The notes beneath the pieces are model-generated. The model was not told where the DNA came from, did no database searches, and was given only the letters and a program-made list of their open reading frames with translations. A program made the position numbers and the translations under genes. A DNA stretch of 50,979 nucleotides from a phage. Below, piece by piece: positions 1 through 48,402 of this stretch; the first letter of the stretch is position 1, and every line of letters begins with the position of its first letter. Location: the sequence record PZ445502.1; one strand, written 5' to 3'.

Positions 1-1569
1 ATGATCATATGGGAAGATTTGACGGCAGCGCAAAAGCGAGCCATTAAAGAAATCAGTGAGCATTCATTCGAAAAGATGATCAGAATCTGGTTCCAGTTAT
101 TGCAGGGGCAAAAATTCCAGAGCAACTGGCATTTTAGCTTATTGTGCAGTGAGGTAGAGAAGATCATCAATGGAGAGTCGCAGAATGTGATTTTCAATAT
201 TACGCCAGGTAGCGGCAAGACTGAGATTTTCTCGATCCACATGTCACCCTACGCGTCATTGAAAAGCCGGAAGGTGAGAAACCTTAACCTTTCGTTTAGT
301 GATGGACTTGTCCAGCAAAACAGCAACAGGATAAAGGAGATTATCGGTTCTCCTGAGTGGCAAGAGCTATGGCCAGGAAAACTGGCAAAGGCGAGTGCAA
401 AAGATCTCATAGTTACGGATGGCGGCAAGGTTAAATTGCAAGTTAACTCACGATCTATTGGCGGACAGGTAACGGGTTTGCGTGGCGGCTATATGGACGA
501 TGGTTTTACTGGTATGCTGGTTCTTGACGATCCAGACAAGCCGGATGATATGCTTTCTAAGGTCAAGCGTGAGGCGATCCACATGAGGTTAAAAAACACA
601 GTGCGATCGCGTCGAATGAAAGACACTACGCCGATTGTTATGGTGCAACAGCGACTACACGTTAATGATTCCACCTGGTTTATGCTTAATGGCGGGATGG
701 GTGGTATTGAGTTTAAAGTTGTGAGTATTCCGGCGCTGGTTACGAAAGAATACCGCGAAACGCTTCCTGATTGGTTGAAGCCTGAATTTGATCGTGATGT
801 TCTGTCAAGTAAGCCAGTGATGATAGATGGCGTTGCTCATTATTCATTTTGGCCTGCAAAGGAAAGCGCGGAGGAATTGCTTGCATTGCGGAATGCAGAT
901 CCTTACACGTTCGCCAGCCAATACCAACAACAACCAATCGCGCTTGGCGGCAACGTGTTTAAAACAGAGTGGTTCCAGTATTACGGCAGAGGCGAAAAAT
1001 GCGCACTTCCTAAACCGGATCGCTTTGAATACACATTTATTACTGGAGATACAGCACAGAAGGCCGGAGAGCTTAACGACTATTCAGTTTTTTGTTATTG
1101 GGGGATGTATAAAAATCGCGTTTACTTCATTGATGGCATTCGCGGCAAGTGGGAAGCGCCAGATCTTGAATTAAATTTTATTGCCTTCGTTAATCAGTGC
1201 TGGAAGCGCAATAAGGAGTGTGGCAGCTTGCGACGTATTCACATTGAGGATAAGGCCAGCGGCACGGGTTTGATTCAGGGGGCCAAAAAGAAGATCCCGA
1301 TTGATATAAATCCCGTTCAGCGAAGCAATGACAAGGTAACGCGAGCAATGGACGCCGCGCCAGTAATGAGGGCCGGACGTGTGGCACTGCCAGAAAATCA
1401 TCCCATGCTGCCTGAGATACTGGCAGAGGTTGCAGCATTCACTTTTGATGATTCTCATCCCCATGATGATATTGTCGATAATATAGTTGATGCTGTTAAC
1501 GTCGAAATGAATTTGGCAGACGATCCGGTAGCAAGGATGAAAAAGCTGGCTGGTCTACGCAATAAATAG
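1..1569 (+). CDS. terL: terminase large subunit
   Basis: 522 aa; Walker A-like ITPGSGKTE and Walker B-like MLVLDDPDKPDD; first gene of the structural module; ATG at window position 1. Confidence 0.85.
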   Translation: MIIWEDLTAAQKRAIKEISEHSFEKMIRIWFQLLQGQKFQSNWHFSLLCSEVEKIINGESQNVIFNITPGSGKTEIFSIHMSPYASLKSRKVRNLNLSFSDGLVQQNSNRIKEIIGSPEWQELWPGKLAKASAKDLIVTDGGKVKLQVNSRSIGGQVTGLRGGYMDDGFTGMLVLDDPDKPDDMLSKVKREAIHMRLKNTVRSRRMKDTTPIVMVQQRLHVNDSTWFMLNGGMGGIEFKVVSIPALVTKEYRETLPDWLKPEFDRDVLSSKPVMIDGVAHYSFWPAKESAEELLALRNADPYTFASQYQQQPIALGGNVFKTEWFQYYGRGEKCALPKPDRFEYTFITGDTAQKAGELNDYSVFCYWGMYKNRVYFIDGIRGKWEAPDLELNFIAFVNQCWKRNKECGSLRRIHIEDKASGTGLIQGAKKKIPIDINPVQRSNDKVTRAMDAAPVMRAGRVALPENHPMLPEILAEVAAFTFDDSHPHDDIVDNIVDAVNVEMNLADDPVARMKKLAGLRNK

Positions 1570-1585
1570 CACTAATTGCTAAAAA
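1565..1585 (+). promoter_or_regulatory. variant copy of the conserved intergenic motif (AATAGCACTAATTGCTAAAAA), followed by TATATAAT and a hairpin
   Basis: overlaps the terL stop TAG; 4 mismatches to the consensus; -10-like box only ~8 nt downstream, so it does not fit the usual spacing. Confidence 0.4.
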
Positions 1586-1596
1586 GTTATATAATC

Positions 1597-1624
1597 AAGG
1601 CTGGATTTTTCCAGCCTTTTTTAT
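1597..1624 (+). terminator. rho-independent terminator-like hairpin between terL and portal
   Basis: AAGGCTGG-attttt-CCAGCCTT followed by a T-run. Confidence 0.5.
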
Positions 1625-6165: not shown

Positions 6166-6192
6166 CTAATAGCATAAAAAAACATTGCACGT

Positions 6193-6209
6193 TTAACAAA
6201 AAGTGCTAT
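6193..6209 (+). promoter_or_regulatory. conserved motif, opposite orientation (TTAACAAAAAGTGCTAT), upstream of the major capsid gene
   Basis: exact core match; followed by a hairpin with T-run and then GGAGG before ATG 6256. Confidence 0.45.
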
Positions 6210-6215
6210 CATCTA

Positions 6216-9211: not shown

Positions 9212-9874
9212 ATGCACTTGCCTAATGGTTCTCAAATTTTCATCGGCGTTAATATGGGTGAGCCAATTAGCGCGACTCAAATCAGCAATGCTGATAATCC
9301 TGTTTTTACAACCGAAAACACTCAAAGCATCAAAAAAGGCGCTTATGTTCTTATTGAAACATCTTCTTGGGGCAAACTTGTTAGTCGAGTGCTTCGAGTT
9401 AAGGAAGTATCAGATAATGCAAGTGTTACTCTTGAGGGTGTTAGCACTAAAGATACAAACGTATTTCCAGAAGGGCAGAACACAGCAACTTTCCGAGAAG
9501 TGAAATCTTGGGTAGAGGTTCCTTGCGTACAGGATCTTGCGCAGGACGGCGGCGAGCAACAGTATTACACTTATCAGTGTTTGGCTGATGACCAGGAGCA
9601 GCAGTTACCGACCTACAAGAGCGCGGTTTCTCTTACCTACACTTTCGCTCATGAATATGATAACCCGATTTATCCGATCTTGCGCGAGGCTGAGGAATCC
9701 GGCGACGTAACCGCTTTGCGTATGTACGTGCCGAAAGCTAAAGAGATGCGTTGCTGGGCTGGCGTATTGTCTTTTAATGACATTCCGCAAACCACTATGA
9801 ACGAAATGGAAACTGTTTCCCTTTCTGTATCTCTGAAAGGCCGATTCACGTTCTTACCTTCCGACGTTAAGTAA
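9212..9874 (+). CDS. major tail protein
   Basis: 220 aa; AGGAGG SD; followed by a strong terminator and then the chaperone and tape measure genes. Confidence 0.6.
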   Translation: MHLPNGSQIFIGVNMGEPISATQISNADNPVFTTENTQSIKKGAYVLIETSSWGKLVSRVLRVKEVSDNASVTLEGVSTKDTNVFPEGQNTATFREVKSWVEVPCVQDLAQDGGEQQYYTYQCLADDQEQQLPTYKSAVSLTYTFAHEYDNPIYPILREAEESGDVTALRMYVPKAKEMRCWAGVLSFNDIPQTTMNEMETVSLSVSLKGRFTFLPSDVK

Positions 9875-9878
9875 AACA

Positions 9879-9900
9879 AGGGGCGTTGCGCCCCTTTTTT
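9879..9900 (+). terminator. rho-independent terminator
   Basis: GGGGCGTTGCGCCCC hairpin followed by TTTTTT. Confidence 0.65.
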
Positions 9901-9942
9901 CATTCCTGTAAAATCAATCTATCAAATAAATTAATTCCACTT

Positions 9943-9959
9943 TTAACAAAAAGTGCTAT
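9943..9959 (+). promoter_or_regulatory. conserved motif, opposite orientation, directly upstream of the SD of the tail chaperone gene
   Basis: TTAACAAAAAGTGCTAT followed by AAGGAG and ATG 9974. Confidence 0.45.
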
Positions 9960-9973
9960 AAGGAGATCTTAAG

Positions 9974-20694: not shown

Positions 20695-20740
20695 ACTATA
20701 CACGATCTTGGGCATCGCGTTTAGCAAAAAGTGCTATTTG
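20695..20740 (-). promoter_or_regulatory. motif-class promoter (motif, ~21 nt, TATAGT) reading toward the lipoprotein operon
   Basis: minus strand reads AATAGCACTTTTTGCTAAAC then 21 nt then TATAGT. Confidence 0.5.
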
Positions 20741-22220: not shown

Positions 22221-22292
22221 CAAACTAAACAAATAGCTAAACTTTTATAATGGTTGGTGATATAATTCACCAACCAGATAACGGGAGAATGA

Positions 22293-26497: not shown

Positions 26498-26516
26498 AAA
26501 TAGCACTTTTTGCTAA
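26498..26516 (+). promoter_or_regulatory. conserved motif, directly upstream (opposite orientation) of the SD of the long fibre gene
   Basis: plus strand AATAGCACTTTTTGCTAA; minus strand reads TTAGCAAAAAGTGCTAT then TTAGGAGG then ATG. Confidence 0.45.
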
Positions 26517-26547
26517 TGACAATGCAGATAATAGCATTTTCAAGTGC

Positions 26548-27573: not shown

Positions 27574-28050
27574 TTAGCTATTTGTGCTGTTATCACCTTT
27601 GTAGAATCGTCCGCCTGGTTCGTAGTCTGAATTCTTGACTACGCGCAACATTTCGTATTTGTCGCAACGGGTAGTAAGAGGCTTACCGTTAGAATCAAAC
27701 CGCAGATCTGGACGACAAAATGATGCGCGGTATCCTTTGCATCCATTATATTTGTAGTCGTTATGCACCTTTTGTGCTCCAGCGGCTGAAATCATACCAC
27801 GCTTTCGCCATTGGTTAACGACTTGCTGAGATACGCGTAGACGTCGAGCCATAGCAGGAACACCGCCATAATACTCGATCAGAATATCCAAGCGAGATTT
27901 CAGGCTTGCTTTTACCTCATCTCGCAGGATAAGAAATCCGGTTCGGTGTTTTCGTGGCTTTTTGTCTTTACCTCGTCGCGTTCCGTTGTTACCGTTAATA
28001 GTGCGCTTGTCGATCTCACCCGTAGACACCGCAATTCGTGCATCTTTCAT
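27574..28050 (-). CDS. putative HTH DNA-binding protein
   Basis: 158 aa; helix-turn-helix-like segment VPAMARRLRVSQQVVNQWRKRG; GAGGTGA SD. Confidence 0.4.
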   Translation of the reverse strand: MKDARIAVSTGEIDKRTINGNNGTRRGKDKKPRKHRTGFLILRDEVKASLKSRLDILIEYYGGVPAMARRLRVSQQVVNQWRKRGMISAAGAQKVHNDYKYNGCKGYRASFCRPDLRFDSNGKPLTTRCDKYEMLRVVKNSDYEPGGRFYKGDNSTNS

Positions 28051-28061
28051 CTAGTCACCTC

Positions 28062-28105
28062 ATAGCATTTTTTGTTAAAACAGTTTATTGTAATGAGTCT
28101 ATTAT
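28062..28105 (+). promoter_or_regulatory. motif-class promoter (motif, ~21 nt, TATTAT) for the helicase operon
   Basis: ATAGCATTTTTTGTTAAAAC then TATTAT; the same element lies just upstream of the SD of the divergent HTH gene. Confidence 0.5.
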
Positions 28106-30135: not shown

Positions 30136-30554
30136 TGGCTATAACTGATAAAGGAGATTATCTTGAGTTTTACGAAAGAGATCCAACCGACACTAGAAAG
30201 GAAGTTAATCACCAGATAGATAGCTTTCAGTGGTTGACTTATGCTCATCCTTACTTGCTGGCGTGGCATACGGTAAACGAGAATGAGAAGTCTAAAGCAA
30301 CGGCGATGATTGATCAGCAGTCCGGCTTGGTTAAGGGTGTAAGCGATTTCATCATCCTGATTGGTTTAAACGGAAAATACCCATTTGCAGCGATTGAGAT
30401 CAAACGAGTGAATAAATCAGGCAAGGGTAAAGCATCACCAGTCAGCGATGAACAAAAGGCTTTTTTGCGTCGAGTTCGCAGCTTAGGAGGATTCGCTGCG
30501 GTCGCCTACGGATTTAATCAGTTTAAGTTGGCTATTGAATACATGCTTAAATAG
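30135..30554 (+). CDS. VRR-NUC domain nuclease
   Basis: 139 aa; acidic/Lys motif IEIKRVNKSGKG...Q..FL typical of VRR-NUC; ATGA overlap with helicase. Confidence 0.5.
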   Translation: MAITDKGDYLEFYERDPTDTRKEVNHQIDSFQWLTYAHPYLLAWHTVNENEKSKATAMIDQQSGLVKGVSDFIILIGLNGKYPFAAIEIKRVNKSGKGKASPVSDEQKAFLRRVRSLGGFAAVAYGFNQFKLAIEYMLK

Positions 30555-30594
30555 CACTTTTTGTTAAAACTTGCGCGATGGATTGCGCCATAAT
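30550..30594 (+). promoter_or_regulatory. motif-class promoter (motif, 22 nt, CATAAT)
   Basis: overlaps the stop TAG; GCGC inverted repeat in the spacer. Confidence 0.5.
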
Positions 30595-31363: not shown

Positions 31364-31603
31364 ATGGAAAAAGAGAGAAGCGTTTTACTTAATGAGGATG
31401 GCGAATTTCTTTTATATCGCGCTATGGTGTGCGACTGTATGGAAAAAAATTCGTTCGTTAAGCCATATATTGATTGCGATTTGTGGGAGTTTTCCGGCTG
31501 CCTGGATATGAGTTTTGAGGAAACTAGAAAACATCCTCTTGAAAAATGGCATGAAATAATTGCTAAAGACCTGCAAGAATTTTACGATTCAGCGATCAAA
31601 TAG
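31364..31603 (+). CDS. hypothetical protein
   Basis: 79 aa from ATG 31364, 4 nt after the Dam stop; ends with AAA TAG inside the motif. Confidence 0.45.
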   Translation: MEKERSVLLNEDGEFLLYRAMVCDCMEKNSFVKPYIDCDLWEFSGCLDMSFEETRKHPLEKWHEIIAKDLQEFYDSAIK

Positions 31604-31643
31604 CACTTTTTGTTAAAACGCCCGGCCTAGTGTCGGGCATAAT
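31599..31643 (+). promoter_or_regulatory. motif-class promoter (motif, 22 nt, CATAAT)
   Basis: GCCCGGC...GTCGGGC inverted repeat in the spacer. Confidence 0.5.
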
Positions 31644-34817: not shown

Positions 34818-34862
34818 AATATACCCGACACAAGGTCGGGAGTTTTAACAAAAAATGCTATT
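34818..34862 (-). promoter_or_regulatory. motif-class promoter (motif, 22 nt, TATATT)
   Basis: CCCGAC...GTCGGG inverted repeat in the spacer. Confidence 0.5.
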
Positions 34863-35052
34863 CCATACGCTTTACTGTAACCAATAACACACCATCATCA
34901 TTGCATAAAACGTGTTCATTGGTGCTAAAAGCGCGCATATCTGAATAAAGCAGCGTAAGTAACGCATGAATAAAATCCTCATGTGATATTGAATTTACGG
35001 CGCAGTGCTTCAAGATCTTGTCTATTAGCTTTTGCCTGGAACAATTCATCAT
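34858..35052 (-). CDS. hypothetical protein (uncertain; overlaps the upstream gene)
   Basis: 64-aa ORF whose stop TAG lies inside the motif like other genes; overlaps 34979..35374 by 74 nt. Confidence 0.25.
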   Translation of the reverse strand: MMNCSRQKLIDKILKHCAVNSISHEDFIHALLTLLYSDMRAFSTNEHVLCNDDGVLLVTVKRME

Positions 35053-36951: not shown

Positions 36952-36979
36952 TCGTTAGCTTCTCCTTTGTGGGCCGTAA

Positions 36980-37025
36980 ATTTTAACGGCCCAATACTAC
37001 CCCGTTTTGTCAAAAAGTGCTATTT
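36980..37025 (-). promoter_or_regulatory. motif-class promoter with TTGACA in the motif, 22 nt, TAAAAT
   Basis: minus strand AATAGCACTTTTTGACAAAAC; hairpin GGGCCGTTAAAATTTACGGCCC encloses the -10 box. Confidence 0.5.
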
Positions 37026-37241: not shown

Positions 37242-37624
37242 AGATATTTACCCTCAAAAAGATAACAGCCGCCAGCAGAGAATCCGACCTCTTCACGGTA
37301 CAGGTTCCAGCGGTCGCCGCACTCATCAAAAACATAACCCGCAACGCTTCCAAGCGGTCGCCCTTTCTCGATCTGGTATCGCTTTCCCTGCTTAAAGTGC
37401 TTTTTGCACGGCATGTTATGATCTACAAACGTGCAAAGAACGGTTTTTGTGTTAATGACGCGGTAATCATCTCGGTTTGCTGGAAGCCAGCGGCTACCCT
37501 TAACAAGCGTCTTAACCTGGAATTCTTCCACCTCGATCACATCATTACTTCCTGCAATCTTCTGATAAACCGTTTTAAATCGGCCTTTCATCAATACGTT
37601 GGTTTCATTACAGATAACATTCAT
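37238..37624 (-). CDS. hypothetical protein
   Basis: 128 aa; overlaps the downstream start by 4 nt. Confidence 0.4.
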   Translation of the reverse strand: MNVICNETNVLMKGRFKTVYQKIAGSNDVIEVEEFQVKTLVKGSRWLPANRDDYRVINTKTVLCTFVDHNMPCKKHFKQGKRYQIEKGRPLGSVAGYVFDECGDRWNLYREEVGFSAGGCYLFEGKYL

Positions 37625-37652
37625 GATCAGATCTCCTTTGTTTGTTCGATGT

Positions 37653-37699
37653 GATTATGCCAGGTTTTTACACCTGGCTTTTAACAAAAAGTGCTATTT
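37653..37699 (-). promoter_or_regulatory. motif-class promoter (motif, 22 nt, CATAAT)
   Basis: GCCAGGT...ACCTGGC inverted repeat abutting the -10 box. Confidence 0.5.
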
Positions 37700-38410
37700 T
37701 GAGTTTGACTCAAAGACGGCGCGAGCAAAGCCGCGCGGAGTGAGGGAGCGGATCATCTTTGTGCGCGATGACTTGCCGCCAGTTTTGGCCCAGCCTGGAT
37801 TATCTTTGTCTTTCTCTTTCGGCAGGATTAAAGCGCGTGGAGGAATAACAAAGCCGTTGCCAGTCCAGAGGCATGTTTTCTTAAAATAGCGATCCCGCGC
37901 CGGAATAATATCAGGGAAGTCGGGATGTTTATCATCTTCCGGCAGATAGCCAGCGTAATCGCACGGATGGAACGTATAATCAGGCTTTCGCCATAACGTT
38001 GACAACTTGCCAACCGGATTTTCGATCATGTATGGAACACCGAAATAATCAGCTATATCAGCCGCGATTCTGCAAGTGTCGGCGGCCTCATCCTGGAAAG
38101 ATGGATTTTTAAGGCGCTTTTTAGCCCAATGGCGAGATCCGCTATTTGCAAGGTCGGTGCATGGTGGGAAGGCCATAATAAAATCAGGATTGCCCCACTC
38201 ATTATTGATTGCCTTAACATAAAAAGCATCATCAATCCAGACGTTAACGTATTCGATATTCTCATGCTGTATGCGCACTGACTGGTAATCACCGTGATCG
38301 CCGCCGTCAGCATTAAAGCAAATGCACTTATAGCCATTATCAGCCCAATCTTTAACGGCTTTACCAGATCCATCAAATAGGGAGAATATTAAACCTTTAT
38401 ACATCGTCAT
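37694..38410 (-). CDS. putative DNA methyltransferase (C5-cytosine-methyltransferase-like motifs)
   Basis: about 238 aa from ATG 38410 with GAGGTA SD; FSLFDGSG, FPPC and ENPVG motifs resembling motifs I, IV and VI. Confidence 0.4.
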   Translation of the reverse strand: MTMYKGLIFSLFDGSGKAVKDWADNGYKCICFNADGGDHGDYQSVRIQHENIEYVNVWIDDAFYVKAINNEWGNPDFIMAFPPCTDLANSGSRHWAKKRLKNPSFQDEAADTCRIAADIADYFGVPYMIENPVGKLSTLWRKPDYTFHPCDYAGYLPEDDKHPDFPDIIPARDRYFKKTCLWTGNGFVIPPRALILPKEKDKDNPGWAKTGGKSSRTKMIRSLTPRGFARAVFESNSK

Positions 38411-38414
38411 TACC

Positions 38415-38639
38415 TCAAAACGGAAAACAGCGCGCACAACCAGGATCGAAATCGCATCCACAATCATTAACAATCATAGTGGGATCTGCAAATATTGCGC
38501 TTGATTCAAGATCCATATCCATATCACCTAAAGCCTCATCAAGAGTCTTAATTTTATATGCCACTTCAAGCGCCGACTCTTTATTTAGTCCGGCATCTTC
38601 TGCCATTTGAAGGCGCTCAAAAAATCCGTCTTGACTCAT
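38415..38639 (-). CDS. hypothetical acidic protein
   Basis: 74 aa; AAGGGG SD. Confidence 0.4.
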   Translation of the reverse strand: MSQDGFFERLQMAEDAGLNKESALEVAYKIKTLDEALGDMDMDLESSAIFADPTMIVNDCGCDFDPGCARCFPF

Positions 38640-39623: not shown

Positions 39624-39820
39624 TAAATGATCTCCATGTATGTTTCAAAGCCATTTAACTTGAACAGGCCGTTTTCACATTTGCGCACGTTCCAAGTTAG
39701 CCCTGAGTGGTACGCCTCCATATCATCAAGGTCAATGGTGATTTCAGCACCTTTCTTAAACAAACCTTTTTCGTGAGACTTGTCGCGCTTAACAACTTTA
39801 ACATCAACCTGATTTTCCAT
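39623..39820 (-). CDS. hypothetical protein
   Basis: 65 aa ORF. Confidence 0.4.
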   Translation of the reverse strand: MENQVDVKVVKRDKSHEKGLFKKGAEITIDLDDMEAYHSGLTWNVRKCENGLFKLNGFETYMEII

Positions 39821-39851
39821 CTTTAAATCCTCGTTTGTTGTCGATGCGCTT

Positions 39852-39897
39852 ACTATACCAATCAGCAGCGCATCGTTTTTAACAAAAAGTGCTATTT
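39852..39897 (-). promoter_or_regulatory. motif-class promoter (motif, 22 nt, TATAGT)
   Basis: minus strand AATAGCACTTTTTGTTAAAAA then 22 nt then TATAGT. Confidence 0.5.
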
Positions 39898-40159
39898 AGT
39901 CCAGAAATTCGATTTCACGCTCTCCAGTTAACGGATCTACAAGCCAGAATCCGAGCGGTTCGCCGTGAGCACCGCCATAGAATCCAAGCGCCGCCAGATC
40001 TTCACCTTTAACGAATACCAGGTTTCCGCTGCGGCTTACGTGAGACACGTTAACGATAACCGGAAATGTGCGATCCTTAAATGCAGGCCGCAGGGCGTAA
40101 CACCCGTTATTGAGCAAACGTGCTTTGCGCTTAACTGGAATAGGTGCATTAATTTTCAT
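39896..40159 (-). CDS. hypothetical protein
   Basis: 87 aa; AAGGAG SD; stop TAA abuts the motif. Confidence 0.45.
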   Translation of the reverse strand: MKINAPIPVKRKARLLNNGCYALRPAFKDRTFPVIVNVSHVSRSGNLVFVKGEDLAALGFYGGAHGEPLGFWLVDPLTGEREIEFLD

Positions 40160-40171
40160 GGTTATTACTCC

Positions 40172-40595: not shown

Positions 40596-40849
40596 TTTTT
40601 CTTCTCCTGCAATAAGCAAACATCATTGATAAAATCAGCACGGCCCTTAATGTTGCTGATGTGGAACGTCTTTTCAGCGTACAGGCCATTACCTTCAATC
40701 ACGATCATTACGCGAGTCGGTTTATTCACGGGCGCACGAGAAAAGGGTTGGCGCACCGGAAGAAATTTAGTCATCACATCCAGGTTAGAACTGGCGGCCC
40801 TGCAAAATGCCTCCGCCAGATCCAAATCATTTTCGGTAATCACCGCCAT
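40583..40849 (-). CDS. hypothetical protein
   Basis: 88 aa from ATG 40849, TAATG overlap with the upstream stop. Confidence 0.4.
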   Translation of the reverse strand: MAVITENDLDLAEAFCRAASSNLDVMTKFLPVRQPFSRAPVNKPTRVMIVIEGNGLYAEKTFHISNIKGRADFINDVCLLQEKKKCWM

Positions 40850-41121
40850 TACTTCTTGATCTCCTTGCTGATAAATTTCAGCACCTGGCGCAAGAAAACC
40901 TCGTTGTTGATAGTCGCTGGCAATTCTTCTTTCACTTCTTGCGGCAGATAGATATTGCCGTGCCAGGTCAAGCAATCGTAGTTGATACGATAAGAGCAAA
41001 GCCACTCGCAATCGTTATCTGCTTCCCAAATGCAGAGTTGCAGAACATCGCCAAAATCTTCAACAGTCAGATCCAGACCGTGACGCTTAGCGAAATTGAA
41101 AGTGGTTTTGCTGATGTTCAT
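40849..41121 (-). CDS. hypothetical protein, first gene of the minus-strand early operon
   Basis: 90 aa; GGAGA SD. Confidence 0.45.
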   Translation of the reverse strand: MNISKTTFNFAKRHGLDLTVEDFGDVLQLCIWEADNDCEWLCSYRINYDCLTWHGNIYLPQEVKEELPATINNEVFLRQVLKFISKEIKK

Positions 41122-41152: not shown

Positions 41153-41200
41153 TGTAATGTACCCGATCAGGTGGCCTGAGTTTTAACAAAAAGTGCTATT
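41153..41200 (-). promoter_or_regulatory. motif-class promoter (motif, 22 nt, TACATT) at the head of the minus-strand early operon
   Basis: minus strand AATAGCACTTTTTGTTAAAAC then 22 nt then TACATT. Confidence 0.5.
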
Positions 41201-41754
41201 TGACGGTTAGCGCCAGGATTGCGATCGAAATAATCAAAAGTAATCATTCGTAATCAAATCACGTCAAAATGATGATTGCCTTTGCAAATTTGATGAGAAA
41301 AGTAATCACGTTTAATCATTGGTTGCAGGGGAGATAGTGAAACCCTCCCCTCTTGCCTCACTTTTTCGCCTGGCTGTCAGTGGTTGTTGTCTTTTGTTCA
41401 CCCCTGTTACCGATTTCAGGCGGCGTGTTTCCGCGCGGTTTTCCGGTGTAGCGAAAACGGAAAAAACAAAGAAAATCCTCTATAATACATTGAAAATAAA
41501 GATTATTTATTTATATATATCTATAATGTTTTCTTTTTGTTCTCACTGTTACAGTGCTTTTTGTTGGTTATGGTGTGGTTGTGTGTGGGTATATATGGAT
41601 AGTTGCGCGCGCGGCGGATTGCATATGTATATATACTTTTTCCGGCGGATTGCGTTAACAGAGTGAACAGAAAAATAACAGCCGCGAAATCAATAACTTG
41701 CGCATGATTTTGTAGTTTTTCGATATTGGTAACGTTTTGAATACAACAAAAACA

Positions 41755-41783
41755 TTGACACGCACCAAATAGCTTTTATAATG
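41755..41783 (+). promoter_or_regulatory. sigma70-like promoter (TTGACA-N16-TATAAT) for the plus-strand early operon
   Basis: consensus hexamers at canonical spacing about 30 nt upstream of ATG 41814. Confidence 0.55.
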
Positions 41784-42278: not shown

Positions 42279-42547
42279 AAAAGGCATTAATCAGCGTTTT
42301 GGCGGCAATGGCATTCCTGACCGGATGCAAAGAAGATGGCGCGCATGTTGGCAATGTGCAGATGGCTAACCCTGGCGATGACTACAGCGTAAGGGAGCTA
42401 TTCACCGCTGACGGTTGCACCGTTTACCGATTCTATGACGATCGCACTGTTTACTTCACCAACTGCAAGGGCGCTACTAGCTGGGAAGTGTCGAAAAGCA
42501 ATGGCAAAGGCACGAAGACAGAACATATGACCGTCGAGACAAAATAG
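42275..42547 (+). CDS. small lipoprotein (second lipoprotein; Llp/Cor-like candidate)
   Basis: 90 aa; signal peptide with lipobox LTGC; ATGA overlap with the upstream gene. Confidence 0.5.
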   Translation: MKKALISVLAAMAFLTGCKEDGAHVGNVQMANPGDDYSVRELFTADGCTVYRFYDDRTVYFTNCKGATSWEVSKSNGKGTKTEHMTVETK

Positions 42548-42587
42548 CACTTTTTGTTAAAACGCCAGGCGCGAAGCCTGGCATAAT
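42543..42587 (+). promoter_or_regulatory. motif-class promoter (motif, 22 nt, CATAAT)
   Basis: GCCAGGC...GCCTGGC inverted repeat abutting the -10 box. Confidence 0.5.
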
Positions 42588-42820: not shown

Positions 42821-43006
42821 ATGAAAACGAAATTAGTCCATAAATCAGAAATCAAGATCGGCGATACTGTGATTCACAACGGCGAGCTTAGAACGGTTGG
42901 CAAAGAGTCAATAAGCCACGATGAATTTATGGGGATCTTGTTGTTCGGTGACTCTTATCGTCTTGGTTACAAGATGGTTGAGCTTGTGGAAGAGGTAAAA
43001 TTCTAA
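42821..43006 (+). CDS. hypothetical protein
   Basis: 61 aa ORF. Confidence 0.4.
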   Translation: MKTKLVHKSEIKIGDTVIHNGELRTVGKESISHDEFMGILLFGDSYRLGYKMVELVEEVKF

Positions 43007-43050
43007 ATAGCACTTTTTGTTAAAACTCAAAAGCGATAACCAGGCATAAT
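43005..43050 (+). promoter_or_regulatory. motif-class promoter (motif, 22 nt, CATAAT)
   Basis: shares CCAGGCATAAT with the promoters near 42543 and 37653. Confidence 0.5.
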
Positions 43051-43252
43051 ACACACATAGACGGGCGGCAAGGATTGCTGCGGGAGAGGAGTAACGCAGG
43101 GGCTTGATCGAAGTGTCAGGATTCCCAACCGTGAGGCCAGAACTATCACACTCGCCACCAGGCAGAACGCTAGATAGGTCACTGAGCTGAGGCTACCGAC
43201 GAAGTGAAGCCCGTCACCAAAGATTAAACGGTTATTTATGTTAAAGGGGTTA

Positions 43253-43435
43253 ATGATGGATAAGATCATCAAAATGAGCGAAGTCAAGCCGGGAATGATG
43301 GTTAAGTTTGCTGGCAAATATCGCCTAGTGCTGGATAACTGCCGCAAAGAGAACATTCTTACCATTCGTGTAAATGGCAAGGCGCAGCTATTCGCCCCTA
43401 GCGCAGATATTGACGTTGAAGTTAGAATTAAGTAA
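43253..43435 (+). CDS. hypothetical protein
   Basis: about 60 aa from ATG 43253 with AAGGGG SD. Confidence 0.4.
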   Translation: MMDKIIKMSEVKPGMMVKFAGKYRLVLDNCRKENILTIRVNGKAQLFAPSADIDVEVRIK

Positions 43436-43450
43436 TTAGGAGGAAACACC

Positions 43451-44344
43451 ATGTTAAAACTTGCTGACATTAAATTCCCGATCACCTTCGAATCTCGCGG
43501 AATTGGTCATTACATTTTTACTGATGAAAAAACATGCCATAAGGTTGATTTGCATAGCTACAAGCGTGCGCCATCAAGCATGGAGATTGATCACTTCATT
43601 GATGCGCATAACAAGCACTACAACTCGCTTAAAGACTACGGCTACGCAATGCCAGGATATACCAGCTTCCACTACAAGCCATACAAGGGCCAGGTGTTAC
43701 CAGTTCGCTCACCGGAACGCGCAGAGATTCCGATGGTCAATATGAAAACCTGCGACTACAAAAAGCTGTGGTGCTTAAGTGTGGACAATATCAAGTATCC
43801 GATCACGTTCCACACAACTGGTAACTCAACGATTCGCTTCACATCACGCGACAATGGCGTTTATAGCGATGGTCAGAAATCAGGGTTGAAAGTTGATTTC
43901 TTTGTCAATGCTCACAACGATTTCAATCCGCACAACGAAAAAGATAAAGTGTACTACGTGGAAGACATTACAAAACACTTATTTGGAGAAACTCCATTCG
44001 GCGGCGGTAAGACGTCAATTCAGCAAATCATTGGCGATGAGATCCACAAAGCGGCTGCCGAAATGAAAGCGCCTGGAGGCTGGCGTATTGACAAGAGCGC
44101 CTTTGCAAATCAAGAAATCGTAACGCAGGGCGCAATTGAAGATATGCCAGTTGCAGCCACGCTAAAAGGAGTCCGGCTTGATGATGGTGTGTGGTTTGAA
44201 GTAACGGCTACACCAAAGACGTTCGAGATTCATGATGACGTTGTTATTCTTCTGCTTCACTACGGCGGCGCAAAAAACCGCACCGTTGCAGGTGAGATCA
44301 GCATCAAGCGCGGAACGATGGTTAAGTGGAAGGTCAAAGTGTAA
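43451..44344 (+). CDS. hypothetical early protein with internal tandem duplication
   Basis: 297 aa; segments around residues 5-60 and 110-165 are clear repeats (IKFPITFESRG... versus IKYPITFHTTG...). Confidence 0.5.
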   Translation: MLKLADIKFPITFESRGIGHYIFTDEKTCHKVDLHSYKRAPSSMEIDHFIDAHNKHYNSLKDYGYAMPGYTSFHYKPYKGQVLPVRSPERAEIPMVNMKTCDYKKLWCLSVDNIKYPITFHTTGNSTIRFTSRDNGVYSDGQKSGLKVDFFVNAHNDFNPHNEKDKVYYVEDITKHLFGETPFGGGKTSIQQIIGDEIHKAAAEMKAPGGWRIDKSAFANQEIVTQGAIEDMPVAATLKGVRLDDGVWFEVTATPKTFEIHDDVVILLLHYGGAKNRTVAGEISIKRGTMVKWKVKV

Positions 44345-44387
44345 ATAGCACGAATTGTTAAAACTCAAATGTGGGGCCAGGTATAAT
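44343..44387 (+). promoter_or_regulatory. motif-class promoter, GAATTG variant (motif, 21 nt, TATAAT)
   Basis: AATAGCACGAATTGTTAAAAC; hairpin TGGGG...CCCCA encloses the TATAAT. Confidence 0.5.
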
Positions 44388-44417
44388 TGCCCCACTTTCA
44401 ACGAAGGAGATAAAACG

Positions 44418-45368: not shown

Positions 45369-45526
45369 CTTGGTTGCTTTTAATCTTTGTCACAAGTTAC
45401 AACTCCGCAGCTATTGAGTCGCAGGAGTTCCACGGCGAATCAAGATGCCAGGAGGCGCGAAAGCAAGTTATTCTCCACATGTCAGATAGTGGGAAGGATG
45501 TAACAGCGTTATGCGTTCGTAAATAG
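45365..45526 (+). CDS. small protein with N-terminal hydrophobic segment
   Basis: 53 aa, not in the ORF track; ATGA overlap with the upstream gene; ends AAA TAG inside the motif. Confidence 0.35.
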   Translation: MTWLLLIFVTSYNSAAIESQEFHGESRCQEARKQVILHMSDSGKDVTALCVRK

Positions 45527-45566
45527 CACTTTTTGCAAAAACAGATTATCGGGCTTGCGGTATAGT
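45522..45566 (+). promoter_or_regulatory. motif-class promoter (TTGCAA variant, 22 nt, TATAGT)
   Basis: GGGCTT...AAGCCC inverted repeat encloses the -10 box. Confidence 0.5.
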
Positions 45567-45597
45567 AAGCCCATAAACAACAAACGAGGATTAAATC

Positions 45598-46445: not shown

Positions 46446-47036
46446 ATGAAGCGAGACATTATTATCCTTAATGGGCCGCCTGGTTGTGGAAAGGACACTA
46501 TTGCAGCTTACCTAACGGGCCATCGTTACCCAGCGGTTAAGGCGTCATTCAAACAGCCGATGTTCGATATTGCGTTTTCCATGCTGGGCGTGTACCGATA
46601 CGATGAATTTATGGACCTGTACAACGACCGAGAACAAAAAGAAAGGCCTCAAGTTATCTTAGGCGGCAAGTCACCTCGACAATTCATGATCTGGATTAGC
46701 GAGGATGTAATGAAGCCAGTTTTTGGAGATCACTATTTCGGGCGTCGAATGGTTGAAGAGATTCACGAGATGTACCGAGATTTGGCGGTTGTGATCAGTG
46801 ATGGCGGATTCCCCGAAGAAATCAAGCCGCTCGTTAAGGCGGGGCATGAGGTGCATATTTGCCGATTGCATCGCGACGGCTTCACGTTTGCTGGCGATTC
46901 GAGAGACTACATTGACCTGAGCGGTTATCACTATCGAATCCATCACTATGACTTCCACTTGCAGGACGGCAAGCCGGAACTGGCTGTAAACGAGATCGTC
47001 AATGCAGTCAAATGGAAGCACACACAGATTAAATAG
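46446..47036 (+). CDS. P-loop nucleotide kinase (dNMP-kinase-like)
   Basis: 196 aa; N-terminal P-loop ILNGPPGCGKDT. Confidence 0.5.
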   Translation: MKRDIIILNGPPGCGKDTIAAYLTGHRYPAVKASFKQPMFDIAFSMLGVYRYDEFMDLYNDREQKERPQVILGGKSPRQFMIWISEDVMKPVFGDHYFGRRMVEEIHEMYRDLAVVISDGGFPEEIKPLVKAGHEVHICRLHRDGFTFAGDSRDYIDLSGYHYRIHHYDFHLQDGKPELAVNEIVNAVKWKHTQIK

Positions 47037-47077
47037 CACGAATTGCTAAACGCGGGGTTATCGGCCCCGCTATAATG
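47032..47077 (+). promoter_or_regulatory. motif-class promoter, GAATTG variant (22 nt, TATAAT)
   Basis: GCGGGG...CCCCGC inverted repeat abutting the TATAAT. Confidence 0.5.
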
Positions 47078-48036: not shown

Positions 48037-48327
48037 ATGGCAAACAAAACTTACCGCAAACTACTGGTTAACGCTTTTGAAAATATCGCGCAGTGTAACA
48101 AGTGGAACGACTCTAAACACTCGCCAGTCACAATGAAGCGCGCAGGATTCAAAAATGCTCGTTCATGGGCGCGAGCTTTCGCAGCTTGCTATATGCCGGA
48201 TGGCGGACTAGGGGTGATGAACGATTTTTTGATCAACATGATAGAGGAAGCGGCGCGAGAGGATCGACCGCTGACACAGCGAGATTTTGACGACTTCGCG
48301 CGCGATGAGCTTTACTATCTGAGCTAA
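48037..48327 (+). CDS. hypothetical protein
   Basis: 96 aa; AAGGGG SD. Confidence 0.4.
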   Translation: MANKTYRKLLVNAFENIAQCNKWNDSKHSPVTMKRAGFKNARSWARAFAACYMPDGGLGVMNDFLINMIEEAAREDRPLTQRDFDDFARDELYYLS

Positions 48328-48370
48328 TAGCACTTTTTGTTAAAACTTCCGCAAGGGCATTTGGTAAAGT
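48326..48370 (+). promoter_or_regulatory. motif-class promoter (motif, 22 nt, TAAAGT)
   Basis: AAGGGCA...TGCCCTT inverted repeat encloses the -10 box. Confidence 0.5.
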
Positions 48371-48402
48371 GCCCTTATTGAAGCGAAACAGAGGAAAGCG
48401 CA

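What the first reader, a model, noticed from the sequence alone, without database searches (positions are those of the whole stretch)
37653..37699. GC-rich inverted repeats fill the motif-to-box spacer or enclose the -10 box, several ending in CCWGG
Between the motif and the -10-like hexamer most copies carry a 5-7 bp stem, for example GCCAGGT..ACCTGGC-ATAAT (37653), GCCAGGC..GCCTGGC-ATAAT (42560), GCCCGGC..GTCGGGC-ATAAT (31616) and GCGGGG..CCCCGC-TATAAT (47050). In others the hairpin encloses the -10: TGGGG-CCAGGTATAATTG-CCCCA (44371), GGGCCGTTAAAATTTACGGCCC (36970-36991) and GGTTGGTGATATAATTCACCAACC (22252-22275, upstream of the annealing-protein gene). Four copies have CCAGG or CCTGG, the Dcm-type site, immediately 5' of the -10. 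A conserved structure with non-conserved sequence suggests it is used as a DNA or RNA structure, for example a 5' stabilising stem-loop, a promoter active in partly single-stranded DNA, or a site modulated by methylation.
Basis: seen in the sequence. Interest (0 to 1): 0.6.

Follow-up and report, generated by a model that had tools for sequence, protein, structure and literature searches.

The report
Hairpins embedded in T1-like phage promoters
Most early-gene promoters of this T1-like coliphage carry a small GC-rich hairpin between a conserved 21-base repeat and the -10 box; comparison across the family indicates it is read as RNA at the end of the upstream gene's transcript, so each intergenic region is a compact stop/stabilise-plus-restart cassette like the PeSLs of T4-like phages.

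Summary
The window is a nearly complete Warwickvirus (Drexlerviridae, T1-like) genome. In 12 of 15 promoter-type copies of the repeat AAATAGCACnnnTTGnTAAA, a 5-10 bp GC-rich stem fills the 20-nt gap before the -10 hexamer or encloses the hexamer (mean MFE -10.9 vs -5.6 kcal/mol for shuffles, z about -10).

Across about 130 distinct hairpins from T1, Rtp, Klebsiella, Cronobacter and metagenomic relatives:
- The stems covary: 9 of 10 pairs show compensatory changes.
- Internal mismatches are G.T on the sense strand 54 times and A.C 4 times.
- Loops are often GNRA or UUCG.
- Hairpins are nearly absent from promoters with no co-directional gene upstream (1/10 vs 80%).

This points to an RNA stem-loop in read-through transcripts, acting as a leaky terminator or 3' stabiliser of the upstream cistron, not a 5' stem, a cruciform or a Dcm switch. 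T1's GenBank record already annotates three such hairpins as terminators. The architecture matches PeSL cassettes of RB49-like phages, including mosaic junctions at the cassettes.

The repeat, whose function a 2024 paper lists as an open question, is a perfect class II marbox (MarA/SoxS/Rob site) with the same geometry as micF. CCWGG is a minority feature.

The parts
37680..37699 (-). 21-nt direct repeat AAATAGCACTTTTTGTTAAA(A). It contains an exact marbox 15-mer, GCACTTTTTGTTAAA. TAG at repeat positions 4-6 is the stop codon of the upstream dcm-like methylase gene (37694..38473).
37659..37678 (-). Flagged class A hairpin GCCAGGT-gtaaaa-ACCTGGC at about -31..-12. It carries CCAGG and CCTGG.
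   Evidence: (MFE -14.0, z -5.2)
37654..37659 (-). -10 hexamer CATAAT, preceded by TGG (extended -10 type). The predicted start lies about 6-8 nt downstream, near 37646-37650.
37622..37645 (-). Leader with SD (AAGGAG) and ATG (37622-37624) of the downstream 128-aa gene.
42564..42582 (+). Class A hairpin GCCAGGC-gcgaa-GCCTGGC. Repeat at 42542-42561, CATAAT at 42582-42587.
   Evidence: (z -3.2)
31620..31638 (+). Class A hairpin GCCCGGC-ctagt-GTCGGGC with a sense-strand G.T pair. It passes the terminator-like filter on the sense strand. Repeat at 31598-31617.
34824..34840 (-). Class A hairpin CCCGAC-cttgt-GTCGGG followed by TATATTTGTT. It passes the terminator-like filter. Repeat at 34844-34863.
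47052..47070 (+). Class A hairpin GCGGGG-ttatcgg-CCCCGC. Repeat at 47031-47050, TATAAT at 47071-47076.
30573..30588 (+). Weak class A hairpin GCGCGA-tgga-TTGCGC. Repeat at 30549-30568.
   Evidence: (z -1.6)
20700..20720 (-). Class A hairpin ACGCGAT-gcccaag-ATCGTGT with a G.T pair. Repeat at 20720-20739. This is a unit-initial promoter with a weaker stem.
36970..36993 (-). Class B hairpin TGGGCCGT-taaaattt-ACGGCCCA enclosing the -10 TAAAAT (36980-36985). Repeat at 37006-37025. It lies upstream of the helicase gene.
39842..39875 (-). Class B hairpin CGATGCGCT...AGCGCATCG enclosing TATAGT (39852-39857). Repeat at 39878-39897. This module is a mosaic junction with FritzSarasin.
   Evidence: (z -4.0)
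44371..44395 (+). Class B hairpin GTGGGGC-caggtataatt-GCCCCAC enclosing TATAAT (44382-44387). Repeat at 44343-44362.
45550..45573 (+). Class B hairpin GGGCTTGC-ggtata-GTAAGCCC around TATAGT (45561-45566). Repeat at 45521-45540.
   Evidence: (z -4.0)
48353..48376 (+). Class B hairpin AAGGGCATTT-ggta-AAGTGCCCTT around TAAAGT (48365-48370). Repeat at 48325-48344. It belongs to the covarying subfamily.
   Evidence: (z -3.6)
22252..22275 (+). Hairpin GGTTGGTGA-TATAAT-TCACCAACC between the exonuclease and annealing-protein genes. The -10 sits in the loop. There is no proper repeat upstream.
28060..28105 (+). Repeat plus TATTAT promoter of the helicase gene in a divergent intergenic region, with no hairpin. 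This serves as the informative negative control.
   Evidence: (z +0.2)

Best explanation
Each intergenic region of the early and middle gene blocks is a roughly 76-nt composite cassette, in this order:
- the stop codon of the upstream gene, embedded in the 21-nt repeat;
- a GC-rich stem-loop;
- a -10 hexamer, usually with G at -14;
- a C-1/A+1 start;
- an A/C-rich leader, SD and ATG.

The stem-loop is not part of the transcript that starts at its own promoter. It is transcribed only by polymerases arriving from the upstream gene, and it folds in that read-through RNA.

In that RNA it most likely acts in two ways. It is a leaky terminator or attenuator, most plausibly for class A hairpins, which abut the A/U-rich -10. 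It is also a barrier to 3' exonucleases that stabilises the upstream cistron, for both classes. The effect is to insulate neighbouring cassettes from each other. Putting the hairpin inside the promoter lets the promoter's own transcripts escape it.

Shown here: the hairpins are real, they covary, they are strand-specific, and they depend on upstream co-directional genes. Inferred: that the folded molecule is RNA rather than sense-strand ssDNA, and that its effect is termination or stabilisation.

The arrangement is the siphovirus counterpart of the PeSL (promoter-early stem-loop) cassettes of RB49/phi1. As in those phages, the cassettes coincide with mosaic junctions between related genomes.
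For: Hairpins exceed chance. In the window z is about -9.9, with per-copy z values. Family-wide, 64% of regions hold a strong helix against 17.6% of shuffles.

Covariation. A subfamily chosen by loop sequence, not by pairing, has 94.1% of cells paired, against 73% in shuffles and 36-54% in slid controls. Nine of 10 pairs change on both sides and 0 of 500 shuffles reach the observed values. Class A examples show the same: CCCGGC/GTCGGG, CCAGGC/GTCTGG, CCCGAC/GTCGGG and CCCGAT/ATCGGG. Orthologous helicase promoters carry unrelated stems, in different positions.

Strand specificity.
- Internal non-Watson-Crick pairs are G.T or T.G 54 times and A.C or C.A 4 times. At the level of sequence clusters the count is 44 vs 4. 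The shuffle null puts G.T at 0.45 of these, giving p about 1e-11.
- Of 32 four-base loops, 18 are GNRA or UNCG on the sense strand and 1 is the antisense equivalent.
- Sense-strand folds are more stable than antisense folds (-7.0 vs -5.7 kcal/mol, p=4e-10).

Dependence on upstream transcription. Of 10 promoters with no co-directional upstream gene, taken from five genomes, 1 has MFE <= -8 (mean -3.5). Of 61 promoters behind a co-directional gene, 80% do (mean -11.6). Mann-Whitney p=2.4e-5.

Stop codon. The upstream stop codon lies in the repeat in 13 of 16 forward copies, so ribosomes release just before the hairpin.

Terminator calls. Two window hairpins pass a terminator filter on the sense strand. 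Some relatives carry textbook terminators in the same slot, for example CCCGC-TTCG-GCGGG-TTTTGTATTAT. The T1 RefSeq record annotates three spacer hairpins as rho-independent terminators.

PeSL precedent. PeSLs have an upstream stop codon, a promoter, G-then-C stems with G-T pairs placed mostly between -35 and -10 or over the -10, and SD plus ATG. One PeSL stem-loop was shown experimentally to terminate (PMC2839356).

Mosaic junctions. Seven of 20 window/FritzSarasin block boundaries fall in cassettes, against 0.63 expected (P=1.7e-6). One is a two-gene insertion flanked by a duplicated cassette.
Against: No transcript-end data exist for any T1-like phage in the searchable literature, so termination or stabilisation is inferred.

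Class B hairpins, the majority, are followed by ATCGAAAC and have no U-tract. Class A tails are no more T-rich than the same promoter positions in hairpin-less modules (0.32 vs 0.31). Canonical intrinsic termination can therefore hold only for a subset.

G.T pairs are also the most tolerated mismatch in single-stranded DNA. Deamination of C on the non-template strand could contribute to the asymmetry. GAAA loops closed by C-G are also stable in DNA.

There are exceptions. Window 43005+, SG01 34295- and 36857-, and Rtp 16306+ have upstream co-directional genes but no hairpin.

The unit-initial labels were assigned by hand from annotation tables.
Confidence: 0.6

Rival explanations
1. DNA-level promoter element. 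The inverted repeat extrudes as a cruciform, or folds in transiently single-stranded DNA, and tunes promoter opening or supercoiling sensitivity.
For: The repeats lie entirely in promoter DNA from -34 to about +4. Class B 3' arms form a C-rich discriminator (49% C at -6..-1), a region known to affect open-complex stability. G.T is tolerated in ssDNA hairpins, so the asymmetry alone does not exclude folding of the sense DNA strand.
Against: A cruciform needs both strands to fold, yet A.C on the sense strand (which is G.T on the other strand) is 13-fold rarer than G.T. Unit-initial promoters of the same type mostly lack hairpins, so the promoter does not need them. UUCG loops and the terminator-like copies with T-tracts are RNA hallmarks. 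The 5' arm (-31..-19) stays double-stranded in an open complex.
Confidence: 0.1
2. Antisense terminators. Read on the opposite strand, the hairpin is followed by TTTTAACAAAAAG, the complement of the repeat, and would stop transcription that runs against the gene block.
For: Class A hairpins are immediately followed on the antisense strand by TTTTAAC. Gene blocks alternate in orientation.
Against: Sense G.T pairs become A.C mismatches in antisense RNA (54 vs 4). GNRA and UUCG loops are on the sense strand (18 vs 1). Antisense folds are weaker. The terminator scan called none of the promoter hairpins on the antisense strand. Class B hairpins lie 8-15 nt away from the T-run.
Confidence: 0.04
3. 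Methylation switch. CCWGG next to the -10 makes promoter activity depend on the host or phage Dcm methylase.
For: The phage encodes a Dcm-like methylase. Four of 15 promoters carry CCWGG ending at -13 or -12 (P=0.007). At position -17..-13 there are 10 family-wide occurrences against 2.8 expected from column composition.
Against: Only 10 of 231 distinct modules have it, and several of those are orthologues of the window's copies. The commonest pentamer at that position is TCGGG. CCWGG is not enriched genome-wide (129 vs 126.5). G at -14 and -13 together with stem pairing explains much of the excess, because CCAGG in one arm forces CCTGG in the other. T1, which has the same hairpins, has only a Dam-type methylase annotated.
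Confidence: 0.04
4. Recombination element with no transcriptional role. The hairpins are sites, or scars, of cassette exchange: folded single-strand substrates for the phage Erf/exonuclease system, loosely analogous to integron attC sites.
For: Mosaic junctions concentrate in the cassettes. In RB49 a crossover was mapped within a PeSL loop (PMC2839356). Structure is conserved while sequence is not, and the asymmetry is strand-specific, as in attC.
Against: No site-specific recombinase is annotated in the close relative FritzSarasin. Junctions are equally well explained by homology in the 21-nt repeat and the conserved -10/leader. Absence from unit-initial promoters fits a transcript-related role better. 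Several copies are complete canonical terminators.
Confidence: 0.08
5. Operator-type protein-binding palindromes for phage or host regulators.
For: They are inverted repeats located in promoters. The phage encodes a Cro/YdaS-like HTH regulator.
Against: Stem sequences differ completely between promoters and between orthologues. Pairing, not sequence, is what is conserved. Loop lengths range from 3 to 16 nt.
Confidence: 0.02

Closest known systems
PeSL (promoter-early stem-loop) cassettes of RB49/phi1 and other T4-like myoviruses (Arbiol et al. 2010, PMC2839356; Comeau et al. 2014, PMC4122927)
   Same: The order of parts is the same: upstream stop codon, promoter, SD plus ATG of the next small gene. 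The stem-loop is rich in G then C, has G-T pairs, and sits mostly between the upstream promoter element and the -10 or over the -10. Cassettes are dense in blocks of small accessory genes and coincide with indel and replacement junctions between close relatives (searches compared).
   Different: The phage family is different (Drexlerviridae siphoviruses) and there is no sequence relationship. The upstream promoter element is not a -35 hexamer at 17 bp but a 21-nt repeat that matches a class II marbox 20 nt from the -10. Terminator activity and mini-circles were shown experimentally for PeSLs and are untested here.
Rho-independent terminators, including those annotated in phage T1 (NC_005833: 38973-39001, 39998-40024, 41980-42007)
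   Same: GC-rich 5-8 bp stems, GNRA or UUCG loops, and position just after a stop codon. Three T1 hairpins in exactly this promoter slot are annotated as terminators. Two window copies pass a simple terminator filter.
   Different: Most copies lack a U-tract. What follows the stem is the -10 hexamer (class A) or the +1 leader ATCGAAAC (class B).
Class II MarA/SoxS/Rob-dependent promoters, for example E. coli micF
   Same: The repeat contains an exact match to the published marbox 5'-gcannwwntgnnaaa-3' (PMC12052159). It is in forward orientation and centred near -40/-41, and there is no usable -35. The distance is exactly that of micF: marbox, 20 nt, then the -10 hexamer.
   Different: This concerns the motif flanking the hairpin, not the hairpin itself. 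Binding by Rob, MarA or SoxS is untested. Known marbox promoters are chromosomal stress genes and have no spacer hairpins.
Hairpin promoters read in single-stranded form (coliphage N4 virion RNA polymerase promoters; plasmid ssDNA promoters such as Frpo). Recalled from general knowledge, not tested against their sequences.
   Same: A short GC-rich stem inside a phage promoter, with structure conserved more than sequence.
   Different: Those need a dedicated polymerase or a single-stranded template and have fixed loop and stem features. Here no RNA polymerase or sigma gene is annotated in relatives (PMC11447400). Loops range from 3 to 16 nt. The hairpin is missing from unit-initial promoters.
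3' stem-loop stabilisers of polycistronic mRNAs (REP-type hairpins; the 3' hairpins left on T7 early mRNAs). General knowledge.
   Same: An intercistronic stem-loop directly after a stop codon that would block 3'-5' exonucleases. This fits class B hairpins, which have no U-tract.
   Different: No processing site or nuclease is identified. The stems are far shorter than RNase III substrates.

Membership tests
PeSL-type composite promoter/stem-loop cassette | Stop codon of the upstream gene at the 5' edge of the cassette | tested here: met
   TAG at repeat positions 4-6, or TAA at position 0/1, ends an upstream ORF of at least 60 codons in 13 of 16 forward copies.
PeSL-type composite promoter/stem-loop cassette | Sigma-70 early promoter with consensus -35 and -10 at normal spacing | tested here: not met
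   The -10 is good (TAnnnT, G at -14 in 85%, C-1/A+1). TTGYTA lies 22 bp from the -10. A standard -35/16-18/-10 scan misses all but one module. The upstream element is a marbox-like repeat instead.
PeSL-type composite promoter/stem-loop cassette | Stable stem-loop (G-run then C-run, with G-T pairs) between the upstream element and the -10, or overlapping the -10 | tested here: met
   46 class A, 71 class B and 9 intermediate unique hairpins; 54 G.T pairs; z-scores.
PeSL-type composite promoter/stem-loop cassette | SD and start codon of the next gene at the 3' edge | tested here: met
   Start codons lie 73-81 nt after the repeat start. TLS shows the same, about 76 nt (PMC11447400).
PeSL-type composite promoter/stem-loop cassette | Cassettes mark insertion, deletion or replacement junctions between close relatives | tested here: met
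   7 of 20 block boundaries against FritzSarasin lie in cassettes (0.63 expected, P=1.7e-6). A roughly 650-bp two-gene insertion is flanked by a duplicated cassette.
PeSL-type composite promoter/stem-loop cassette | The stem-loop terminates or attenuates upstream transcription (reporter assay) | not testable with these tools
   Indirect support only: hairpins are present behind co-directional genes (80%) and absent from unit-initial promoters (10%).
Intrinsic (rho-independent) terminator | GC-rich stem of at least 5 bp with a 3-8 nt loop | tested here: met
   Met by class A hairpins and several class B.
Intrinsic (rho-independent) terminator | U-tract directly 3' of the stem | tested here: inconclusive
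   2 of 15 window copies pass the filter of at least 5 T in 8 nt. 22 of 46 class A hairpins have at least 4 T in 8 nt. There is no T enrichment over hairpin-less modules. Class B has none.
Class II marbox (MarA/SoxS/Rob) promoter | Match to the marbox consensus gcannwwntgnnaaa | tested here: met
   18 exact matches in the window against 0.56 expected, and 7-21 in five other Drexlerviridae genomes. The variable repeat positions coincide with the n/w positions of the consensus.
Class II marbox (MarA/SoxS/Rob) promoter | Forward orientation, centred near -41, overlapping and replacing the -35 | tested here: met
   The centre is at -40/-41. The 20-nt gap to the -10 occurs in 123 of 145 modules. 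This is identical to micF as measured here. The definitions come from PMC12052159 and PMC10268841.
Class II marbox (MarA/SoxS/Rob) promoter | Bound and activated by MarA, SoxS or Rob | not testable with these tools
   phmmer found no MarA homologue in the window. No paper links marboxes to phage promoters.
Single-strand hairpin promoter (N4 type / ssDNA promoters) | Dedicated polymerase or single-stranded template, with fixed stem and loop geometry | tested here: not met
   No RNA polymerase or sigma gene is annotated in FritzSarasin or TLS. Loops range from 3 to 16 nt. The hairpin is dispensable at unit-initial promoters.
Dcm (CCWGG) methylation-sensitive promoter | CCWGG consistently placed in the promoter | tested here: not met
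   Present in 4 of 15 window promoters and 10 of 231 distinct modules family-wide.

The most novel reading that the evidence does not exclude
The hairpins may be one half of a family-wide cassette whose other half, the 21-nt repeat, is a class II marbox. A 2024 paper lists that repeat's function as an open question.

On this reading, T1-like phages fire some 15-20 early and middle promoters through the host's Rob, MarA or SoxS (RamA in Klebsiella). Phage gene expression would then be wired to the host's bile, antibiotic and oxidative-stress regulators. The embedded RNA hairpins would insulate each Rob/MarA-driven cassette from read-through, and so keep the cassettes freely exchangeable between phages.
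Probability: 0.45. Interest if true: 0.85.

Novelty: new variant of a known kind. Interest (0 to 1): 0.6.

Why it matters
T1 is a classic coliphage, yet its transcription programme is essentially unmapped. A 2024 reannotation of TLS found only three conventional promoters and named the function of the 21-nt intergenic repeat as an open question (PMC11447400).

This analysis reads each intergenic region as repeat (marbox-like activator site), then an RNA hairpin serving the upstream gene, then an extended -10 promoter. That yields a concrete, testable transcription map for the whole Drexlerviridae family. It also explains why standard promoter and terminator predictors fail on these genomes.

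It shows that PeSL-like 'stop-and-restart' cassettes arose independently in a siphovirus family and mark the places where small genes are swapped.

The cassettes are about 76 nt long, self-insulating expression units, which may be useful as compact parts for synthetic operons.

If the marbox reading is right, infection efficiency of a large group of therapeutic-candidate phages could depend on host stress regulators that are also central to antibiotic resistance.

Tried and rejected
- Column-by-column complementarity over 81 non-redundant modules gave only one significant column pair, (-21, -4), because hairpin registers differ between modules. I switched to per-sequence helix finding and to a subfamily chosen by loop sequence.
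- A gapless MAFFT alignment of class A modules mixes 4-, 5- and 6-nt loops, so no single structure string could be tested on it. Compensatory changes for class A were read directly from the sequences.
- Two automatic classifications of 'upstream co-directional gene', one by stop codon in the repeat and one by longest ORF, were noisy because of spurious antisense ORFs. They were replaced by hand labels from the annotation tables.
- U-tract enrichment after class A stems was tested and not found.
- Rfam gave no hit and ARAGORN found no tRNA.
- The roughly 180-nt leader after promoter 43005+ is not unusually structured (z=0.57).
- A phage-encoded MarA-like activator was not found. The annotated phage regulator is Cro/YdaS-like.
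- The Rtp genome paper was not available. Searches for T1-family transcriptomics or for Rob/MarA-phage links returned nothing relevant.
- The IMG/VR pattern scan returned many chance single hits in unrelated contigs. Only contigs with at least two modules were used in the statistics.
Full report
IDENTITY AND CONTEXT

The window is an almost complete genome of a Warwickvirus (Drexlerviridae, Tempevirinae). It is 97-98% identical to phages SLUR29, tiwna, tonijn and FritzSarasin. Genes lie in alternating blocks. Structural genes are on the + strand from 1 to 19.5 kb, and small early and middle genes fill 20-51 kb.

The 'motif' in the finding is AAATAGCACnnnTTGnTAAA(A). It occurs 20 times against 0.9 expected. 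In 15 copies it is followed, 20 nt after the 20-mer, by a -10-like hexamer (CATAAT, TATAAT, TATAGT and similar). A conserved start region (C-1/A+1, often CATCGAAAC), an SD and a start codon follow, the start codon about 76 nt from the repeat.

The same 21-nt repeat has been described in TLS, T1, Rtp and Rogue1. Its function is explicitly listed there as an open question (PMC11447400). That paper does not mention hairpins.

Yes. All quoted examples are at the stated positions.

- Folding the -34..+4 region of the 15 promoter copies as RNA gives hairpins with z from -1.6 to -5.2 in 12 of them. Copies 28060+, 41201- and 43005+ have none.
- As a set, the mean MFE is -10.9 kcal/mol, against -5.6 (sd 0.53) for dinucleotide shuffles and -4.4 for random genome windows.
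- I collected modules from T1, Rtp, Klebsiella phage Sin4, Cronobacter phage SG01, FritzSarasin and IMG/VR contigs. Across these, 155 of 241 regions hold a strong helix against 17.6% of shuffles.
Among 126 unique hairpins, 46 fill the spacer (class A, about -31..-12), 71 enclose the -10 (class B, typically -24..-19 pairing with -6..-1) and 9 are intermediate.

IS THE STRUCTURE SELECTED?

To avoid circularity I chose a class B subfamily by its loop sequence (CATTTGnTAnAGT), not by its pairing.

- On that alignment 94.1% of cells form pairs, against 73% in shuffles and 36-54% when the partners are slid.
- Nine of 10 pairs show changes on both sides.
- The inner helix is 99% paired, with stems such as AAGGGC/GCCCTT, AAGGCC/GGCCTT, GAGTGC/GCACTC, GGAGAC/GTCTCC and AACGTC/GGCGTT.
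- An outer helix (ACTTC/GAAGT, which becomes ACTTG/CAAGT) extends to +3..+8.

Class A promoters show the same kind of change: CCCGGC/GTCGGG, CCAGGC/GTCTGG, CCCGAC/GTCGGG and CCCGAT/ATCGGG. Orthologous promoters of the same helicase gene carry unrelated stems, in either class.

WHICH MOLECULE FOLDS?

Three independent measures point to the sense strand alone.

- Internal non-Watson-Crick pairs are G.T or T.G 54 times and A.C or C.A 4 times. At cluster level the count is 44 vs 4. Helices found in shuffled sequences give a G.T share of 0.45.
- Of 32 four-base loops, 18 are GNRA or UNCG on the sense strand and 1 is the antisense equivalent.
- Sense folds are more stable than antisense folds (p=4e-10).

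A cruciform, an antisense terminator or a protein-binding palindrome would not give this pattern.

The hairpin lies upstream of the conserved start, so it is absent from the transcript made at its own promoter. It can only fold in RNA that reads through from the upstream gene or, less likely, in sense-strand ssDNA.

A DISCRIMINATING TEST

If the hairpin served the promoter, every promoter of this type should have one. If it served the upstream transcript, promoters that begin a transcription unit should lack it.

I labelled promoters by hand from the annotation tables of five genomes. The 10 unit-initial promoters have mean MFE -3.5, and 1 of 10 reaches -8 or lower. They include the helicase promoter that diverges from the regulator gene in all five genomes. 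The 61 promoters behind a co-directional gene have mean -11.6, and 80% reach -8 or lower. Mann-Whitney p=2.4e-5.

The upstream gene's stop codon is embedded in the repeat in 13 of 16 forward copies. Ribosomes therefore release about 15-25 nt before the stem.

WHAT DOES THE HAIRPIN DO?

For termination:
- Some relatives carry textbook terminators in this slot, for example CCCGC-TTCG-GCGGG-TTTTGTATTAT.
- Two window hairpins pass a simple terminator filter on the sense strand (31620-31638 +, 34840-34824 -).
- The T1 RefSeq record annotates three spacer hairpins as rho-independent terminators.

Against canonical termination as the general role:
- Class A tails are no more T-rich than the same positions in hairpin-less modules.
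- Class B hairpins are followed by ATCGAAAC.

My committed reading is an RNA stem-loop that attenuates read-through (class A especially) and protects the 3' end of the upstream cistron (both classes), which insulates adjacent cassettes. I put this at about 0.6. The choice of RNA over ssDNA, and the molecular effect, are inferences.

COMPARISON WITH KNOWN SYSTEMS

The closest match is the PeSL cassette of RB49/phi1. [quoted passage not shown] One PeSL stem-loop was shown to terminate, and PeSL cassettes mediate gene shuffling (PMC2839356, PMC4122927).

The shuffling signature is present here too. Seven of 20 alignment-block boundaries between the window and FritzSarasin fall within cassettes, against 0.63 expected (P=1.7e-6). 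One is a roughly 650-bp two-gene insertion in FritzSarasin flanked by a duplicated cassette.

The differences are the phage family, the lack of sequence relationship, and the promoter type. TTGYTA lies 22 bp from the -10, and a standard sigma-70 scan misses the modules.

THE MOTIF ITSELF

The repeat contains an exact match to the published marbox, 5'-gcannwwntgnnaaa-3' (PMC12052159).

- There are 18 exact matches in the window against 0.56 expected, and 7-21 in the other five genomes.
- Its variable positions are exactly the n and w positions of the consensus.
- It is in forward orientation, centred at -40/-41, with no usable -35. This is the definition of class II MarA/SoxS/Rob promoters (PMC10268841).
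- In E. coli micF, measured here, the marbox is followed by 20 nt and then the -10 hexamer. This is the same spacing as 123 of 145 phage modules. fumC is similar.
- No MarA homologue was detected in the window. The phage's annotated regulator is Cro/YdaS-like.
- I found no paper making this connection.

Binding is untested, so this goes forward as the novel case and not as the verdict.

CCWGG

The four cases are real and mildly over-represented in this phage (P=0.007 at promoter level). They are a minority feature family-wide, at 10 of 231 modules. They are partly explained by the conserved G at -14/-13 and by stem symmetry. The genome as a whole shows no CCWGG bias.

VERDICT

The finding is a real, selected, strand-specific structure. 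It is a new variant of a known kind: PeSL-like promoter/stem-loop cassettes, here in T1-like phages and built on a marbox-type promoter.

Noticed in passing
window repeats at 1564-1583(+), 20720-20739(-), 28060-28079(+), 30549-30568(+), 31598-31617(+), 34844-34863(-), 37006-37025(-), 37680-37699(-), 39878-39897(-), 41182-41201(-), 42542-42561(+), 43005-43024(+), 44343-44362(+), 45521-45540(+), 47031-47050(+), 48325-48344(+): [quoted passage not shown] It is forward-oriented, centred near -41, and has the same marbox-to--10 spacing as E. coli micF. The TLS paper of 2024 lists the repeat's function as an open question. No MarA-like gene was found in the phage.
   Followed up: partly
window 6192-6211(-), 9942-9961(-), 26498-26517(+): Three repeat copies point against the local gene direction. 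Each sits between a terminator and the SD of the next gene. The 9961 copy has TAGATT at the right spacing and then runs into a bidirectional terminator (about 9870-9895), which would give a roughly 40-nt antisense RNA. T1 has the same arrangement at 18852(-).
   Followed up: no
window 41755-41782 (+): A perfect sigma-70 consensus promoter (TTGACA, 16 nt, TATAAT; 12/12) lies in the divergent intergenic region at the head of the rightward early block. It is a likely activator-independent immediate-early promoter.
   Followed up: no
window 39818-39897; L001 (FritzSarasin) 40087-40164 and 40813-40890: FritzSarasin carries about 650 bp with two extra small genes, flanked by two copies of the cassette that is single in the window. 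Other block boundaries start or end exactly at cassettes (42542, 43060, 44334/44343, 45518).
   Followed up: yes
window 43061-43433: A window-specific insertion of about 370 bp relative to FritzSarasin begins right at the start site of promoter 43005+. It holds a GC-rich leader of about 180 nt and a 65-aa ORF (43238-43435). The leader is not unusually structured (z=0.57) and has no Rfam or tRNA hit.
   Followed up: partly
window 1584-1618 (+): After the large terminase gene, the repeat is followed by TATAAT (1590-1595) one base before a strong terminator hairpin (1597-1618, then TTTTTTATT). A start about 7 nt after this -10 would fall inside the 5' arm. Such transcripts would escape the terminator that stops upstream transcripts, which is the same logic as the early cassettes.
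   Followed up: no
window promoter positions -15/-14 and -1/+1 of all modules (e.g. 37660-37661, 42580-42581): G at -14 is conserved in 85% of 81 non-redundant modules and T at -15 in 44% (extended -10 type). C-1/A+1 is conserved in about 82%, followed by an A/C-rich leader (ATCGAAACGAAAC).
   Followed up: partly
window 27574-28079: The Cro/YdaS-like regulator gene (27574..28050, minus strand) starts 10 nt from a repeat copy (28060-28079) that drives the divergent helicase gene. A protein bound there could therefore repress the regulator's own mRNA leader while activating the helicase promoter.
   Followed up: no
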